From: Escherichia coli O157:H7
Lineage (GTDB): Bacteria; Pseudomonadota; Gammaproteobacteria; Enterobacterales; Enterobacteriaceae
NCBI RefSeq assembly: GCF_013167455.1
Contig: NZ_CP038328.1
Length of the DNA stretch: 64,000 nt
Reading direction: 5' to 3' (one strand)
Shown in pieces: positions 57,101-63,100 of this stretch. The first letter of the stretch is position 1, and the number at the start of each line of letters is the position of its first letter. The position numbers were made by a program.

Positions 57101-60100
57101 TCAACCCTTCAGATGATGAATCCAAAGGGTTGTATATTAACTATATTTTTAACAAGACCAGACACTTATAGAATTAGTGATAAAAAGGCCATGAGCTGGA
57201 GGAAAACGATCTGTCCAGAAAGTCTATCGGTTCCTCTCTTATTGCCTCATTGTAATAATCGTTATTACAATAAGTATTGTTTATTTCATCTAAGGTCATA
57301 TTTTTAATTTTTATATTCCTCTGGTTTACAACTTCTTCTGTTTTATAAGTATGTGTATTATATGGGGTATATGCTTTATTAATAGTATAGTGAAACAATT
57401 CGTTATCCACATCTAATCCGTCAGAGTGATCTTCAAATGCACCAGGCGAAAGAATTGCCAGGCCAGTATTAAGCTTAAGTGCTGGGGAAAACAAATTAAA
57501 TAACATGAGCTGGATAGTAGGGCAATTGTTCTCGCCAGAAATATTTAAAAAATTTAAGCTTTCGCTCTTCTTTATTATGGGGAATAAACTTCTAATATCG
57601 GATGTGTTCTCAGTATCAATGCGAGTTATTTTATTATTGTCCAGCCTTAAACTTTTGATAGATGAAAGATAAGTCAGGAAATGAAGGTTTATTTTTTCCA
57701 ACTGATTGTTAGCAGCGTTTAATGTCTGAACTTTGCAGAAGTTGCTATAAAACATTTTAATTTCAGAAAGCAAGTTGTTGTTGATAAGTAACGTATTTAA
57801 GTTGGGAAATAAGGCATTGTGTAAACTTGCTAGTTTATTATGGGATAGATCCAGCAGTAAGAGTTCTTCTTTATTTCCTGTAACAATATCAGTTAATTGA
57901 TTATGGCTGAGATTCAGGTATTGCAGCCATTCGCAAGATTCTAATTGCACAAACTCTAGTTTATTATGTGCCGCACTAAAATAAGTAATTGATGAAAGCC
58001 TATCTATATCAATATTTCTGAGACAATTATTATTCATAGATATATGTGTAATGCTTACATTTCTGCCTTGATGAATATTTATTGACTCAAGAGTGTTACT
58101 ATTCAGACTAAGTTTTACGAGTCTATCGTAGTTGGTTGCATCAAAATGTGTGAGTTGGTTATTATCAAGATTGATAGAGGTGAAGTTTTGCAGCCCTGGT
58201 GGTTGAGTAGATAAATTAAGTCCTGATAAATCAATGTCATTCTGTTTCGACAAAAAAGCACAGTTTATCCTTTTAGCGGCTTCGTTTCGACATTCCGGAC
58301 GATGGATTTCACCTGTAAGTATACGTTCTTCTTTCCATTTATTTAATTCGAGCATCCAGTTAAGTTGATTTTTTTCTGGATGTTGCTGTATGGATTGTGG
58401 TTTTATTTTGTTAAATATTGAAGGGAATTTCATAACTGCTCCATAGTAATACAATGTTTTTCTGATTTATCACCCTTGATAAACCAGGATGTGTTTTATA
58501 ACTCTGTTGTAAAGGATTGGCTTAACCAATTATTGGATGTTGGACCATAACCTAAGGAAGGTTTACTCTCATTATGAATATAATAACAGACGGGTGTGCC
58601 CGTTGGGTCCTTGAGTCCCGAGTGTGAGGATAGAGAAGAGGAATTTGACTTATAGTCACTAACCCCGTACATGCGACGCATAGGCAGAATAGCTTTTAGT
58701 TCTGCGTCAGAAAATATTGTTTCTTCTTCTATTAAGGCGGAATCTCTGGAATAATATTTTGATCTATAACGAATAGACATTGAGTCATTGTCTTTTATAT
58801 AATTACCTTCTGAATTATCGCTTACTTCTACAAGATGTTCATCACTGGTATCGATATTTGTGATTGCCAGATTATAAGATAAATCAATGGTCACTTCATT
58901 AGTGTCATCAATTATATTTCTTACTGCAGTCCAGTACTGCATTTGTGCAAGTGAATCATTGTTGATGCCGTTAACTAATACATGCCAAAGATGTTTTGAT
59001 GATATTAGTTGATCAATGTCATTGGTTGGCAATAAATTGTTATTGCTTAAGTTTAAATATTCAAGTTTTGTAGTAGTTTTGGTGTTTAAATGTGCAATAT
59101 GGTTGTCGTTTAAAGTGATTGTTTTCATCCTGGGATGATTGTGTAATATAAGGTCAGTGATCATATTGTGATGGGCACTTAACTCAATCAGAGACTCTTG
59201 CCGGGAGACATCCAGCGATGCTAGCTTGTTATAATCAAGATTAAGAAATTTCAGTTTATAACTATCAGAAATATTAATTTTTTTAGATTATTATTTTGCG
59301 CTTCCAGATTAACCAATGAATGCTGATTTTTTAAATCTAAACTTTCCAGATTATTATGATCAATATAAATGTTTTCCAGATTTGATTCATTTGGAAAGGT
59401 TATCGTGTTAATTTTATTAAAGCTGAGGTTGATATTAACGAGACTGGCATTGTCAGTAAAGTCAAGACAAGTTAGACAATTGTTTTCCAGATTTAACGTA
59501 TTAACTGTCGAGGGGATAGGCGGTAACTCACTCAAATCAAGATATGACAAATCAAGAGATGCCATGTTCGAATTGTAAGCTTCTTTAATTCGCTCCACGG
59601 CAATTGCTCTTTCTTCACCATTATTAAGCGACTTATTACCCCATTGTTCTAGTCGTTCACAAAAATTGCTGGAGATGGTTTCTTTGTTAGGTAATGCGTT
59701 ATTAAATTGATAACTGGCATTATTTTTTACACAAGCTGTATTAATATTGGTCATAATCACTCATCAATAAATATTATAGTAAGATGTCCCCGGGGGTATG
59801 GAATAATATTAATTGAGGTGAATGACCAGAAATATCAAAAATTGCTCATTTTTACTTAAGGAGTCATACAGCAGCACTTAAATCAAAAACCAGCCCAGAG
59901 AAGGGCTGGTCAGGAGAGGATGTTAGAACTGATAGGTAATGCCCGTAGCGACGATGTTATCGGTGCGAATATCTACGGCACGGGTAAAGTCGCTTTCATC
60001 AATCAGGTTGATTTTATAATCAACATAGGTCGACATATTTTTGTTGAAGAAATACGTCGCACCAACGTCGATATACTCAATCATGTCCTGATCGCCGTAG

Positions 60101-63100
60101 CGGCCCAGATCTATGCCTTTCGATTTCAGGTAAGCGAGTGAGGGGCGCAAGCCGAAGTCGAATTGATATTGCGCCACCACTTCAAAACTTTGTGCTTTGT
60201 TAGAAATATAACCATCGCCATAGGTGGTCATGTTTAATGTTTCAGCGTAATTAGCTGCAAAGTAGATGTTGTTGGCATCATATTTTATACCTGTAGCCCA
60301 CAGTTCTGCATTCTTACCGGAGGCATTGAGAGGATTAGCAGCGGCTCTTTCCTGCGCATTTGTCCGATCGGATTTGGTATACACCGCTCCGATACCAAAG
60401 CCATCATAAACATAAGTTGAGGAGATACCGAAACCGTCACCGTTGGCACGCGTGTAGTCAGCACCATAAAGATGACTGTTGTCAGTACGTTCATTTTTGC
60501 CTTGATATTGCGCGGCAAAGTTCAGCCCTTCAATTAAGCCAAAGAAATCGTAGTTGCGATAGGTTGCTACACCGGTGGTACGGTATGTCATGAAGACATC
60601 TTTCTGACTCCAGGTATCGCCACCAAATTCTGGCAACATATCAGTCCATGAACCAATGTCATAGCCGACACCGTAGTTACGGCCATAGTCCAGAGAGCCA
60701 AATTCACTAATTTTTAAACCAGCATAGGCCAGACGGGTCTTGTTGTCGCGCGAGCCGTTGGCTTCATCGTTATAGCCTTTAAAATCATATTCCCAGTGAC
60801 CAAAACCAATCATTTGATCATTGATTTGCGTTTCTCCTTTAAAGCCGAGACGGGCATAAGTTTTATCACCATCGTCACGCTTATCATCAGTAAAATAACG
60901 TAGAGCGGTAACCTTGCCATAAAGGTCGAGTTTATTACCATCCTTGTTATAGACTTCGGCAGCGTGTGCTACGTTCGCAGCTAACAAACCAGTTACAACC
61001 ACCGCAACTATTTTTAATTTCATTTAACAGAATCCTTTTAATTATCGTTAAACGTATTTTTTAAACGAATTTTAAACGGCGCCATTTATAAATGACATAC
61101 TGTTTTTAAATTAGAATGGTGATTAAAAACAATGAGAAAAATAGATGAAATAATATTATTTATCGATATGTGATCGGAGTCGAAATGAGATATAAGGTGA
61201 ATTACTGGTATTTGAAATTTATTTTTTAATATTGTCGGGGTTTATCTGATTAATTGCCGGGCCGTAGACCCGGCAATTATTTTAGCCACGACGTGTCGCC
61301 AGCCAGCAGAGCAGGGAACCGCCGCAGACCATCAGCGCGCCTTGCCAGAACGAGAACGACAGCGGGGCGCTGAGCAGCACGGCTGCAAGCGCTGAGGAAA
61401 GTACGGGCGTAAAATACGAACCTACCGCCATTATGGTGACGTTGCCATGCAGTATACCGACATTCCATGCAGCATAAGCAAATCCTAAGGTAAATGCCGC
61501 AGAGATGAGTTTAATCATGACTGGCGTGCTAAATACCATTTCTGGTTGTGGCGTGAGAAAATAGTAAACCCACAGACTTGCTCCCGTTAGCAGGACAAAA
61601 ACGGTAATTCCGTTAAATCCGCGTGCGTATTTATTCGTTACTGTGCAGTAGGCTGCCCAGATAAACGCACCAATGAACGCCAGGAAATAACTCAATGGGC
61701 TGGTGGTGATATTATTGATGATTTCATCATAATGTAACCCATTGTCACCGCCTAACACCCAGCAGACGCCGACGAGGGCTAATAATAATCCTGGTACAAT
61801 CAGCCAGTTGGTTTTCTGACCATTAAACAGAATGGCAAAGAGAATTGTCAGGCTGGGCCACAGATAGTTCACCATACCCACTTCAATCGCCTGATGACGG
61901 GTCGCCGCATACCCTAAGGAAAGCGCCAGACAGATTTCATAGCTGACGAATAACAGACTCCCGGCGAGTAAATAGCCTTTCGGGATTTGCCGAATACGCG
62001 GAAATCCAACCGTGAAGATTAACAGCAGCCCGCTTAATGAATAGATAGCAGCTGCGCCACCGACCGGGCCGAGCCCCTCACTGACACCGCGAATCAATCC
62101 TACCATCGTGCTCCACAGGACGATCGCTATTAGCCCTATGAGCGTTGCTTTTTGTCGTGTCATGCTCGCTGTTTTGTCTCTCTTGCCGTTAAAAATTAAG
62201 CTGAATTTTATAGCATTTTTTTAACTGGCCTGTCAGGCAGTGGTGCGTTTTTCTACCGCTATTGAGGTAGGTCAATTTGCGCAGGCGGATTATTTTGTGG
62301 CAAACACGTGTTCTTTTTGATTTCGCGCAAAAAGATTCAGAATTTTACTGTTAGTTTCCTCGCGCAGTAATACCCCTGAAAAAAGAGGAAAGCAATGGAC
62401 GTCAGTCGCAGACAATTTTTTAAAATCTGCGCGGGCGGTATGGCTGGAACAACAGTAGCGGCATTGGGCTTTGCCCCGAAGCAAGCACTGGCTCAGGCGC
62501 GAAACTACAAATTATTACGCGCTAAAGAGATCCGTAACACCTGCACATACTGTTCCGTAGGTTGCGGGCTATTGATGTATAGCCTGGGTGATGGCGCGAA
62601 AAACGCCAGAGAAGCGATTTATCACATTGAAGGTGACCCGGATCATCCGGTAAGCCGTGGGGCGCTGTGCCCGAAAGGGGCCGGTTTGCTGGATTACGTC
62701 AACAGCGAAAACCGTCTGCGCTACCCGGAATATCGTGCGCCAGGTTCTGACAAATGGCAGCGCATTAGCTGGGAAGAAGCATTCTCCCGTATTGCGAAGC
62801 TGATGAAAGCTGACCGTGACGCTAACTTTATTGAAAAGAACGAGCAGGGCGTAACGGTAAACCGTTGGCTTTCTACCGGTATGCTGTGTGCTTCCGGTGC
62901 CAGCAACGAAACCGGGATGCTGACCCAGAAATTTGCCCGCTCCCTCGGGATGCTGGCGGTAGACAACCAGGCGCGCGTCTGACACGGACCAACGGTAGCA
63001 AGTCTTGCTCCAACATTTGGTCGCGGTGCGATGACCAACCACTGGGTGGATATCAAAAACGCTAACGTCGTAATGGTAATGGGCGGTAACGCTGCTGAAG

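What the first reader, a model, noticed from the sequence alone, without database searches (positions are those of the whole stretch)
59923..61023. Full-length general porin gene where K-12 has only a fragment
A 366-aa OmpC/OmpF-family porin with intact signal peptide and C-terminal Phe is present. From memory the K-12 equivalent (yddL) is a truncated remnant. An additional expressed porin would alter outer-membrane permeability and phage or colicin receptor repertoire.
Basis: partly seen in the sequence, partly recalled or inferred. Interest (0 to 1): 0.3.

Follow-up and report, generated by a model that had tools for sequence, protein, structure and literature searches.

The report
Intact OmpD-type porin beside yddG
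This E. coli O157:H7-type sequence carries a complete copy of the outer-membrane pore gene that Salmonella calls ompD, which laboratory E. coli K-12 keeps only as the stump yddL; this was already published, so the finding is correct but ordinary.

Summary
Window 59923-61023 (minus strand) is an uninterrupted 366-aa general porin. It has a 21-aa signal peptide, every constriction-zone residue and a C-terminal YQF.

The locus is not new. It is gene Z2239 of O-island 62 in O157:H7 EDL933, and the EAEC 042 copy was published as "an apparently functional ompD".

What I add:
- The gene is the positional orthologue of Salmonella/Citrobacter ompD (fdnGHI-yddG-porin...narU-narZ). It has diverged as much as its flanking core genes, so it is ancestral, unlike the low-GC LRR effector genes beside it.
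- A full-length locus is present in 1111 of 5426 complete E. coli genomes. The gene has been lost or broken at least five separate ways.
- Where it is kept it is under strong purifying selection (dN/dS about 0.04).
- It lacks the codon bias of a major porin (Nc 50.8, against 34.5 for Salmonella ompD).
- The MicC and SdsR target sites of Salmonella ompD are predicted to be lost.

I conclude it is probably a functional porin made at low or conditional levels. Whether it is expressed is untested.

The parts
59923..61023 (-). Porin coding sequence: 366 aa, with a 21-aa signal peptide and a 345-aa mature 16-strand general porin. It is Z2239 of EDL933 O-island 62. RefSeq labels it 'porin OmpC' (WP_000768382.1).
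   Evidence: ORF. Pfam Porin_1 full length, E 2e-134. NCBIfam OmpC subfamily model 495.8 bits against a cut-off of 484; the OmpF and PhoE equivalog models fail. RefSeq annotation. Pore residues conserved.
60961..61023 (-). Signal peptide codons 1-21. In Salmonella ompD this early coding region carries the RybB, InvR, SdsR and MicC target sites.
   Evidence: Mature PDB chains align from residue 22. In the window the RybB seed site at +18..+27 is kept but weaker (-13.7 against -18.3 kcal/mol). The homologous SdsR site is weakened (-17.2 against -30.1). Site positions in Salmonella are from PMC3333887.
60945..60958 (-). Position homologous to the Salmonella ompD MicC site (+66..+79, codons 23-26). 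Here the sequence is GAAGUCUAUAAC instead of GAGGUAUAUAAC.
   Evidence: Seed duplex of -6.8 kcal/mol here, against -15.8 (Salmonella) and -15.7 (C. koseri). The window's best MicC duplex anywhere is no better than shuffles.
61024..61096 (-). Predicted 5' untranslated region (~73 nt) with an AAGGA Shine-Dalgarno sequence. It aligns with the 69-nt ompD leader of Salmonella.
   Evidence: Alignment of window, K-12, C. koseri and Salmonella upstream regions. The Salmonella UTR length is from PMC3333887. The transcription start in the window is inferred by homology, not measured.
61103..61132 (-). Inferred sigma-70 promoter TTGTTT-18-TAAAAA. It is homologous in position to TTGAAC-18-TAAAAA upstream of the Salmonella ompD 5' end.
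   Evidence: sequence and alignment. This is inference only. The consensus scan proposed a different, overlapping candidate, ATGTCA-18-TAAAAT at 61098-61069.
59888..59911 (-). Intrinsic terminator hairpin (GACCAGCCC-TTCTCT-GGGCTGGTT followed by TTTGATTT), 12 nt after the porin stop codon.
   Evidence: 9 pairs, 6 of them G-C, with a T-run. It suggests the porin is its own transcription unit, separate from the LRR genes downstream.
59204..60739 (.). Segment missing in K-12-type genomes (about 1.54 kb). It is essentially the published 1,548-bp 'O-island 62'. It removes porin codons ~95-366, the terminator and the 5' LRR ORF.
   Evidence: Blastn of the window against MG1655 and DH5alpha. Junction read: short imperfect microhomology, TCTTG..CG. 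The size of O-island 62 is from PMC3079680.
61282..62163 (-). yddG, an aromatic amino acid exporter. It is the conserved upstream neighbour that anchors the synteny with Salmonella ompD.
   Evidence: NCBIfam YddG equivalog at 472.5 bits. The same neighbour is present in C. koseri, Salmonella and E. albertii.

Best explanation
This is the E. coli orthologue of the enterobacterial porin OmpD. It is a trimeric 16-strand general diffusion channel, exported by a Sec signal peptide and inserted in the outer membrane. It sits at its ancestral position between yddG and narU. It is not a newly acquired gene. The common ancestor of Escherichia, Salmonella and Citrobacter had it, and most E. coli lineages later destroyed it: a 1.5-kb deletion gives yddL in K-12-type strains, and CFT073 (phylogroup B2 from my own knowledge) has lost the whole interval, as apparently have other strains matching only ~80 bp, such as ST131. 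O157:H7 and about a fifth of complete E. coli genomes keep it intact under purifying selection. In E. coli it has probably been demoted from a major porin, as in Salmonella, to a minor or conditionally produced one. It has lost translational codon bias. It is predicted to have lost MicC and SdsR pairing and to keep only a weakened RybB site. Shown here: gene integrity, family, synteny, population distribution, selection and codon statistics. Inferred: expression level, promoter, sRNA control and any effect on permeability or receptors.
For: Family and integrity:
- Full-length Porin_1 match.
- All constriction residues and PEFGG are present.
- 59-62% identity to OmpC, OmpF, PhoE and OmpN, and E about 1e-126 to solved OmpC/OmpK36 structures.

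Orthology:
- C. koseri and Salmonella both have fdnIHG-yddG-porin-GFA-smvA-smvR-narU-narZ. The Salmonella protein is named OmpD by NCBI.
- Amino-acid identity is 77% to C. koseri and 73.5% to Salmonella OmpD. It is 68% to prophage NmpC/Lc and ~60-62% to OmpC, OmpN, OmpF and PhoE.
- Nucleotide identity of the porin to C. koseri and Salmonella is 73.3% and 71.3%. That equals yddG (73.9% and 73.0%) and is close to narU (76%).
- The ~110 nt upstream align with the Salmonella ompD leader and promoter.
- Porin GC is 44%, against 31-38% for the adjacent LRR genes.

Distribution and decay:
- 1111 of 5426 genomes carry a full-length locus. Most of the rest keep only the 5' ~540 bp of the query, and strains such as CFT073 keep only ~80 bp next to yddG.
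- Other inactivations: an E78* nonsense allele, a different 3' truncation and an IS1 insertion in E. albertii.

Selection:
- 18 synonymous against 3 non-synonymous differences between the O157 allele and the other common allele, dN/dS 0.044.
- 7 of 8 evenly sampled full-length loci are intact and encode only two protein variants.

Low expression inferred:
- Nc is 50.8, with a C-ending fraction of 0.41 and CTG at 7 of 22 Leu codons. Salmonella ompD has 34.5 and 0.73, C. koseri 33.6 and 0.78, ompC 29.0 and 0.87. The values resemble phoE (46.3) more than any major porin.

sRNA sites: with Salmonella as a positive control that reproduces the published MicC site at codons 23-26 (PMC3333887).

Prior literature: PMC3079680 (Z2239-Z2242, yddL similar to the 5' end of z2239) and PMC2808357 (Ec042-1601 'apparently functional ompD').
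Against: No transcript, protein or phenotype data for this gene were found. Expression is therefore unproven, and the gene could be silent under most conditions. The neighbour-joining tree places the protein inside the OmpD/NmpC/Lc group, but internal nodes have low bootstrap support (6-48%). Orthology therefore rests mainly on synteny and flank-matched divergence. The 72-77% amino-acid identity is low for an E. coli-Salmonella orthologue pair, though yddG diverges equally at the DNA level. The sRNA predictions are duplex energies on seed fragments of K-12 sRNA sequences. They are not experiments, and the sRNA genes of this strain were not examined. Codon bias is only an indirect proxy for expression.
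Confidence: 0.8

Rival explanations
1. The porin arrived by horizontal transfer as part of a recently acquired low-GC island (O-island 62) together with the LRR effector genes. On this view O157-type strains gained it rather than K-12 losing it.
For: Okeke et al. (PMC3079680) proposed recent acquisition of the whole island, citing 33-36% GC. CFT073 has nothing between narU and yddG. The porin's GC (44%) is below that of Salmonella ompD (50%).
Against: A porin sits at exactly this position, next to yddG, in Salmonella, C. koseri and E. albertii. Its DNA divergence from them equals that of yddG, and its upstream leader is alignable. Its composition (42-47% GC) differs from the LRR genes (31-38%) and resembles phoE and ompN. 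K-12 retains the 5' end of the gene and a deletion junction, which marks loss rather than absence.
Confidence: 0.07
2. The gene is intact but effectively cryptic: silenced or not expressed, and on its way to becoming a pseudogene. On this view it contributes nothing to permeability or receptor repertoire.
For: Almost no codon bias (Nc 50.8). At least five independent inactivation events across Escherichia. A very AT-rich upstream region (about 33% GC at 60900-61199), of the kind often bound by H-NS (my own knowledge). No literature on its expression.
Against: dN/dS of 0.044 across alleles that differ by dS 0.08. Only two protein variants in 7 intact sampled loci. Every pore-lining residue is conserved. 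A silent gene would not keep this signature over that divergence. Promoter-like elements, a Shine-Dalgarno sequence and a terminator are intact.
Confidence: 0.15
3. It is a second copy or allele of OmpC, as the RefSeq annotation says, or the prophage porin NmpC/Lc, which E. coli papers often call 'OmpD'.
For: PGAP names it 'ompC: porin OmpC'. It passes the NCBIfam 'porin OmpC' subfamily model by 12 bits. Many papers equate E. coli OmpD with nmpC (PMC3333887, PMC10321414, PMC7371104).
Against: It is only 61.7% identical to K-12 OmpC, which lies at a different locus beside micF and rcsD. The NCBIfam model is a subfamily model, not an equivalog. It is 68% identical to NmpC/Lc proteins. Those carry a different N-terminal region in the alignment, and here there is no prophage context.
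Confidence: 0.02

Closest known systems
Salmonella enterica OmpD (STM1572), the yddG-linked major porin
   Same: Same chromosomal position (fdnGHI-yddG-porin ... narU-narZ). 73.5% amino-acid identity. The leader and promoter-proximal region align. The general-porin architecture and constriction residues are the same. The RybB seed site is at the same codons.
   Different: The Salmonella gene has the strong codon bias of an abundant porin (Nc 34.5 against 50.8). It has strong predicted MicC and SdsR sites that are missing or weak here. Its downstream neighbours are GFA-smvA-smvR rather than LRR effector genes. InvR is described as Salmonella-specific (from my own knowledge) and was not tested.
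Z2239 of E. coli O157:H7 EDL933 O-island 62, and Ec042-1601 ('ompD') of EAEC 042
   Same: This is the same gene. The window is 100% identical to O157-type genomes. The published description places it between yddG and narU, with yddL similar to the 5' end of z2239 (PMC3079680). The 042 copy is described as an apparently functional ompD (PMC2808357).
   Different: Nothing structural. The papers did not analyse synteny with Salmonella, selection, codon bias or sRNA sites. One of them proposed recent acquisition of the whole island, which my data contradict for the porin.
E. coli K-12 yddL (b1472)
   Same: The same promoter region, leader and first ~93 codons, 98.6-99.2% identical.
   Different: yddL is a 96-aa stump left by the ~1.54-kb deletion and cannot form a barrel.
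NmpC / Lc, the prophage-borne porins (DLP12, PA-2)
   Same: The same OmpD/NmpC/Lc subgroup of general porins, ~68% identity.
   Different: They are prophage-encoded, at a different locus and with a different signal peptide. They are often mislabelled as the E. coli OmpD (PMC3333887).
OmpN and PhoE, the quiescent or conditional porins of E. coli
   Same: A comparably weak codon bias (Nc 40-46) and a canonical pore. This suggests a similar minor or conditional role.
   Different: They are different paralogues (59-62% identity) at different loci, and they are conserved across E. coli rather than polymorphic.

Membership tests
General bacterial porin family (Pfam Porin_1, PF00267; OmpC/OmpF/PhoE type) | Full-length match to the family profile | tested here: met
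   Residues 27-366 match model positions 1-337 of 337, E 2.2e-134, 448.6 bits against a cut-off of 23.7.
General bacterial porin family (Pfam Porin_1, PF00267; OmpC/OmpF/PhoE type) | Cleavable signal peptide and C-terminal aromatic residue (Phe) for outer-membrane assembly | tested here: met
   [21 protein letters not shown] then AEVYNK. Mature PDB chains align from residue 22. The protein ends in YQF. Cleavage itself was not tested.
General bacterial porin family (Pfam Porin_1, PF00267; OmpC/OmpF/PhoE type) | Loop-3 PEFGG motif and the charged constriction residues (K16, R42, R82, R132, D113, E117 in OmpF numbering) | tested here: met
   All are identical in the alignment with OmpF, OmpC, PhoE and OmpN.
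General bacterial porin family (Pfam Porin_1, PF00267; OmpC/OmpF/PhoE type) | Trimeric 16-strand beta-barrel that conducts small hydrophilic solutes | not testable with these tools
   Inferred from ~60% identity over the full length to solved OmpC, OmpK36, OmpF and PhoE trimers. No structure was predicted and no conductance measured.
OmpD orthologue group (the yddG-linked porin of Salmonella and Citrobacter) | Conserved chromosomal position next to yddG, between fdnGHI and narU-narZ | tested here: met
   Same gene order in C. koseri, Salmonella, E. albertii and this window.
OmpD orthologue group (the yddG-linked porin of Salmonella and Citrobacter) | Closer to OmpD-position proteins than to any paralogue, with divergence matching the flanking core genes | tested here: met
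   77% and 73.5% identity, against 68% (NmpC/Lc) and 59-62% (OmpC, OmpF, OmpN, PhoE). DNA identity equals that of yddG. Caveat: tree nodes have low bootstrap support.
OmpD orthologue group (the yddG-linked porin of Salmonella and Citrobacter) | Repression by MicC, SdsR and RybB through sites in the early coding sequence, as shown for Salmonella ompD | tested here: inconclusive
   Prediction only. The RybB site is kept but weaker (-13.7 against -18.3 kcal/mol). The MicC site (-6.8 against -15.8) and the SdsR site (-17.2 against -30.1) are not better than shuffles. This is a regulatory trait of the Salmonella gene, not a criterion of orthology.
OmpD orthologue group (the yddG-linked porin of Salmonella and Citrobacter) | Major, abundant porin (codon bias typical of highly expressed genes) | tested here: not met
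   Nc 50.8 and C-ending fraction 0.41, against 34.5 and 0.73 in Salmonella and 33.6 and 0.78 in C. koseri. Abundance itself was not measured.
OmpC (equivalog in the strict sense, as RefSeq labels it) | Orthology to K-12 ompC (b2215, next to micF and rcsD) | tested here: not met
   A different locus and 61.7% identity. Only the broad NCBIfam 'subfamily' model is passed, 495.8 bits against 484.
NmpC/Lc prophage porins | Carried in a lambdoid prophage | tested here: not met
   The neighbours are narU, LRR genes, yddG and fdnG. No phage genes are annotated in the 13.5-kb locus. Identity is 68%.

The most novel reading that the evidence does not exclude
In Escherichia the ancestral major porin OmpD may have been rewired rather than simply decaying. 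On this reading it escaped MicC and SdsR control, lost high-expression codon usage and became a conditionally produced porin. Its presence/absence polymorphism (intact in about 20% of complete genomes, destroyed at least five different ways) would then be maintained by opposing pressures from phages, colicins or host antibody on one side and a niche-specific benefit in lineages such as O157:H7 and EAEC 042 on the other. It could then be a lineage-specific phage receptor or antigen in O157:H7.
Probability: 0.25. Interest if true: 0.4.

Novelty: already known. Interest (0 to 1): 0.15.

Why it matters
The practical value is modest. The gene is a surface-exposed, lineage-restricted porin of O157:H7 and related pathogenic lineages. 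It could serve as a phage or colicin receptor, an antigen (Salmonella OmpD is a protective antibody target, as cited in PMC2808357), or a minor route for solute and antibiotic entry.

The analysis also clears up three recurring annotation muddles:
- RefSeq calls the gene 'OmpC'.
- Much of the literature treats the prophage gene nmpC as the E. coli OmpD.
- K-12 yddL has been discussed as a possible small functional protein (PMC9976479), although it is the stump of this gene.

Finally, the locus is a neat example of one ancestral major porin being independently discarded many times within a single genus.

Tried and rejected
- Full-length sRNA-mRNA RNAduplex runs gave unrealistic whole-molecule duplexes with no discrimination. 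I replaced them with seed-fragment duplexes, using Salmonella as a positive control.
- Biopython bootstrapping timed out. I replaced it with a numpy Kimura-distance NJ bootstrap. That tree resolves the OmpD/NmpC/Lc group against OmpC/OmpN/PhoE only weakly, so I do not rest orthology on it.
- The cluster look-up returned a cluster mixing porins with LepA proteins. That looks like an indexing artefact. I used only the fact that the exact protein is seen on at least 1000 contigs.
- Literature searches for Z2239, ECs2074, ECs2076 and Ec042-1601, and the supplements of an O157 transcriptome paper, gave no expression data for the porin.
- Rfam found no known RNA element in or next to the gene.
- I did not run structure prediction, a metagenome or genome-collection scan, or a deep profile search. 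The family assignment and synteny were already unambiguous, and the cost was not justified.
- A possible CRP half-site (the conserved GATCACA block upstream) was seen by eye only and is not claimed.

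
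Full report
**1. The observation**

The window carries an uninterrupted 366-codon ORF on the minus strand at 59923-61023, starting at ATG. Its product matches Pfam Porin_1 over the whole model (residues 27-366, E 2.2e-134). It starts with a typical signal peptide, [21 protein letters not shown], followed by AEVYNK. Solved, mature porin chains align from residue 22. It ends in YQF.

In an alignment with K-12 OmpF, OmpC, PhoE and OmpN, every residue of the constriction zone is present: K16, R42, R82, R132, D113, E117 and the PEFGG turn of loop 3. An intrinsic terminator hairpin follows the stop codon at 59911-59888.

**2. The K-12 comparison**

The window is 100% identical here to O157:H7-type genomes. 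MG1655 and DH5alpha match the window at 55001-58236, 58878-59203 and 60740-62400. They lack 58237-58877 and about 59204-60739.

The second gap is about 1.54 kb, with a short imperfect microhomology (TCTTG..CG) at the junction. It removes porin codons ~95-366, the terminator and the 5' LRR ORF. What remains is annotated as yddL: 96 aa in MG1655 and 'porin, missing C-terminus' in DH5alpha.

**3. Already published**

- Okeke et al. 2011 (PMC3079680) describe O-island 62 of EDL933 (1,548 bp; ORFs Z2239-Z2242) between yddG and narU. They state that K-12 yddL resembles the 5' end of z2239.
- The EAEC 042 genome paper (PMC2808357) lists Ec042-1601 as 'an apparently functional ompD'.
- In Sakai the neighbouring genes are ECs2073 (EspR1) and ECs2074/2075 (EspR2' fragments) (PMC5931665).

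I found no paper that measures expression or function of the porin itself. In E. coli papers 'OmpD' usually means the prophage gene nmpC.

**4. What it is: the positional orthologue of OmpD**

*Synteny.* In C. koseri and in Salmonella the gene order is fdnI-H-G, yddG, porin, GFA, smvA, smvR, narU, narZ. NCBI names the Salmonella protein OmpD. In the window the order is narZ, narU, LRR genes, porin, yddG, fdnG. E. albertii also has a porin next to yddG.

*Protein identity*:

| Compared with | Identity |
|---|---|
| C. koseri yddG-linked porin | 77% |
| Salmonella OmpD | 73.5% |
| NmpC/Lc (prophage porins) | 68% |
| K-12 OmpC | 61.7% |
| K-12 OmpN | 61.8% |
| K-12 OmpF | 60.3% |
| K-12 PhoE | 59.3% |

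*Divergence.* The porin's DNA identity to C. koseri and Salmonella (73.3% and 71.3%) equals that of yddG (73.9% and 73.0%) and is near narU (76%). That is what vertical descent predicts. The ~110 nt upstream of the ATG align with the Salmonella ompD leader and promoter.

*Composition.* The porin is 42-47% GC, like phoE and ompN. The LRR genes next to it are 31-38% GC.

I conclude that the porin is ancestral, and that only the LRR effector genes are foreign. They occupy the place held by the GFA-smvA-smvR genes in the other genera. This corrects the suggestion that the whole island was recently acquired.

*Caveat.* A distance tree puts the protein inside the OmpD/NmpC/Lc group but with weak internal support. 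Orthology therefore rests on synteny and flank-matched divergence.

The RefSeq label 'porin OmpC' comes from a broad NCBIfam subfamily model, passed by only 12 bits. The OmpF and PhoE equivalog models fail.

**5. Population picture**

Of 5426 complete E. coli genomes, 1111 have at least 80% of the 1481-bp query. Most others keep only the 5' ~540 bp of the query, which is the yddL state. Strains such as CFT073, ST131 and IHE3034 match only the ~80 bp adjacent to yddG. In CFT073 the whole interval 57055-61201 is absent.

Further independent inactivations:
- an E78* nonsense allele in strain B19429;
- a different 3' truncation in JSWP006;
- an IS1 insertion in E. albertii.

Eight full-length loci were taken at even steps down the ranking. 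Seven are intact, and they encode just two protein variants (WP_000768382.1 in O157-type strains, WP_000768393.1 elsewhere).

The two alleles differ by 18 synonymous and 3 non-synonymous changes: dS 0.08, dN/dS 0.044. The gene is therefore dispensable for the species but constrained where it is kept.

**6. How it probably works**

By homology it is a trimeric general diffusion porin. This is inferred from ~60% identity over the full length to solved OmpC, OmpK36, OmpF and PhoE. Two sequence features suggest that its role differs from Salmonella OmpD.

*Codon usage*:

| Gene | Nc | C-ending fraction (F, Y, N, D, H, I) |
|---|---|---|
| Window porin | 50.8 | 0.41 |
| Salmonella ompD | 34.5 | 0.73 |
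| C. koseri orthologue | 33.6 | 0.78 |
| K-12 ompC | 29.0 | 0.87 |
| K-12 ompF | 37.1 | 0.71 |
| K-12 ompN | 40.4 | 0.44 |
| K-12 phoE | 46.3 | 0.36 |
| Window yddG | 49.5 | 0.38 |

The window porin also uses CTG for only 7 of 22 Leu codons, against 21 of 25 in Salmonella ompD. It looks like phoE or an average gene, not like a major porin. This points to low or conditional expression.

*sRNA sites.* Salmonella ompD is repressed by RybB, InvR, SdsR and MicC through sites in the early coding sequence (PMC3333887). I tested seed fragments of the K-12 sRNAs. The figures below are for the homologous, published positions; they equal the best site found except where noted:

| sRNA | Salmonella | C. 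koseri | Window |
|---|---|---|---|
| MicC (kcal/mol) | -15.8 at +66..+79 | -15.7 | -6.8 |
| RybB | -18.3 at +17..+27 | -17.4 | -13.7, same position, two G-U wobbles |
| SdsR | -30.1 (best site -33.5, +27..+67) | -26.1 (best site -29.8) | -17.2 (best site -24.2) |

The Salmonella result reproduces the published MicC site at codons 23-26. The Salmonella and C. koseri best sites all beat shuffled targets (fraction of shuffles at or below the observed energy 0.007-0.027). In the window, the best MicC and SdsR duplexes are no better than shuffles, and RybB is marginal (fraction 0.09). K-12 yddL has the same early coding sequence, so these changes are shared with K-12 and are not peculiar to O157.

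*Promoter.* By alignment with the Salmonella 69-nt leader, I infer a TTGTTT-18-TAAAAA promoter at 61132-61103 and a transcription start near 61096. The consensus scan suggested an overlapping alternative. Neither has been verified.

**7. Verdict**

The finding is real and correctly read, but it is an already described strain difference. My additions are:
- the orthology argument;
- the loss history;
- the selection and codon statistics;
- the predicted loss of MicC and SdsR sites.

These are incremental and partly inferential. Whether the porin is made in O157:H7, and under what conditions, remains the open and easily testable question.

Noticed in passing
window 57174-58433 (-), 58877-59164 (-), 59251-59760 (-): Three low-GC (31-38%) leucine-rich-repeat ORFs lie immediately downstream of the porin. 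RefSeq calls the first one T3SS effector EspR1. The other two are the fragments called EspR2' in Sakai (an IpaH-like N-terminus). They occupy the place held by GFA-smvA-smvR in Salmonella and Citrobacter. In K-12 the same region is rearranged by a second, 641-bp deletion (58237-58877) into yddK and yddJ.
   Followed up: partly
window 44292-44409 (+): Rfam match to a group II intron D1-D4 domain (RF01999, 90 bits, E 6e-17). This suggests a group II intron, or a remnant of one, elsewhere in the window.
   Followed up: no
window 3106-3257 (-) and 2483-2546 (-): Rfam matches to the sok antitoxin RNA (111.5 bits), implying a hok/sok-type toxin-antitoxin locus, and to the sRNA RydC (92.5 bits).
   Followed up: no
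window 62395-64000 (+), SECIS at 62977-63035: fdnG (formate dehydrogenase-N alpha subunit). Its in-frame UGA makes the ORF list stop at 62982, and an Rfam SECIS_3 element sits right at that point. This is a normal selenocysteine gene, not a broken ORF.
   Followed up: partly
window 61240-61281: A GC-rich hairpin (TTGCCGGG-TCTAC-GGCCCGGCAA on the minus strand) directly follows the yddG stop codon without a T-run. It may be the yddG terminator or a REP-like element separating yddG from the porin promoter. It is conserved in K-12.
   Followed up: no
L024/L025 (E. fergusonii), 3369-6113: E. fergusonii has two tandem porin genes (351 and 370 aa) at an unrelated locus near vsr. The 370-aa one is 68% identical to the window porin. 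This illustrates how many OmpD/NmpC-like paralogues RefSeq labels 'OmpC'.
   Followed up: no
(E. coli genome search): Six of the 5399 matching places were on records typed as plasmids rather than chromosomes. I did not examine them.
   Followed up: no
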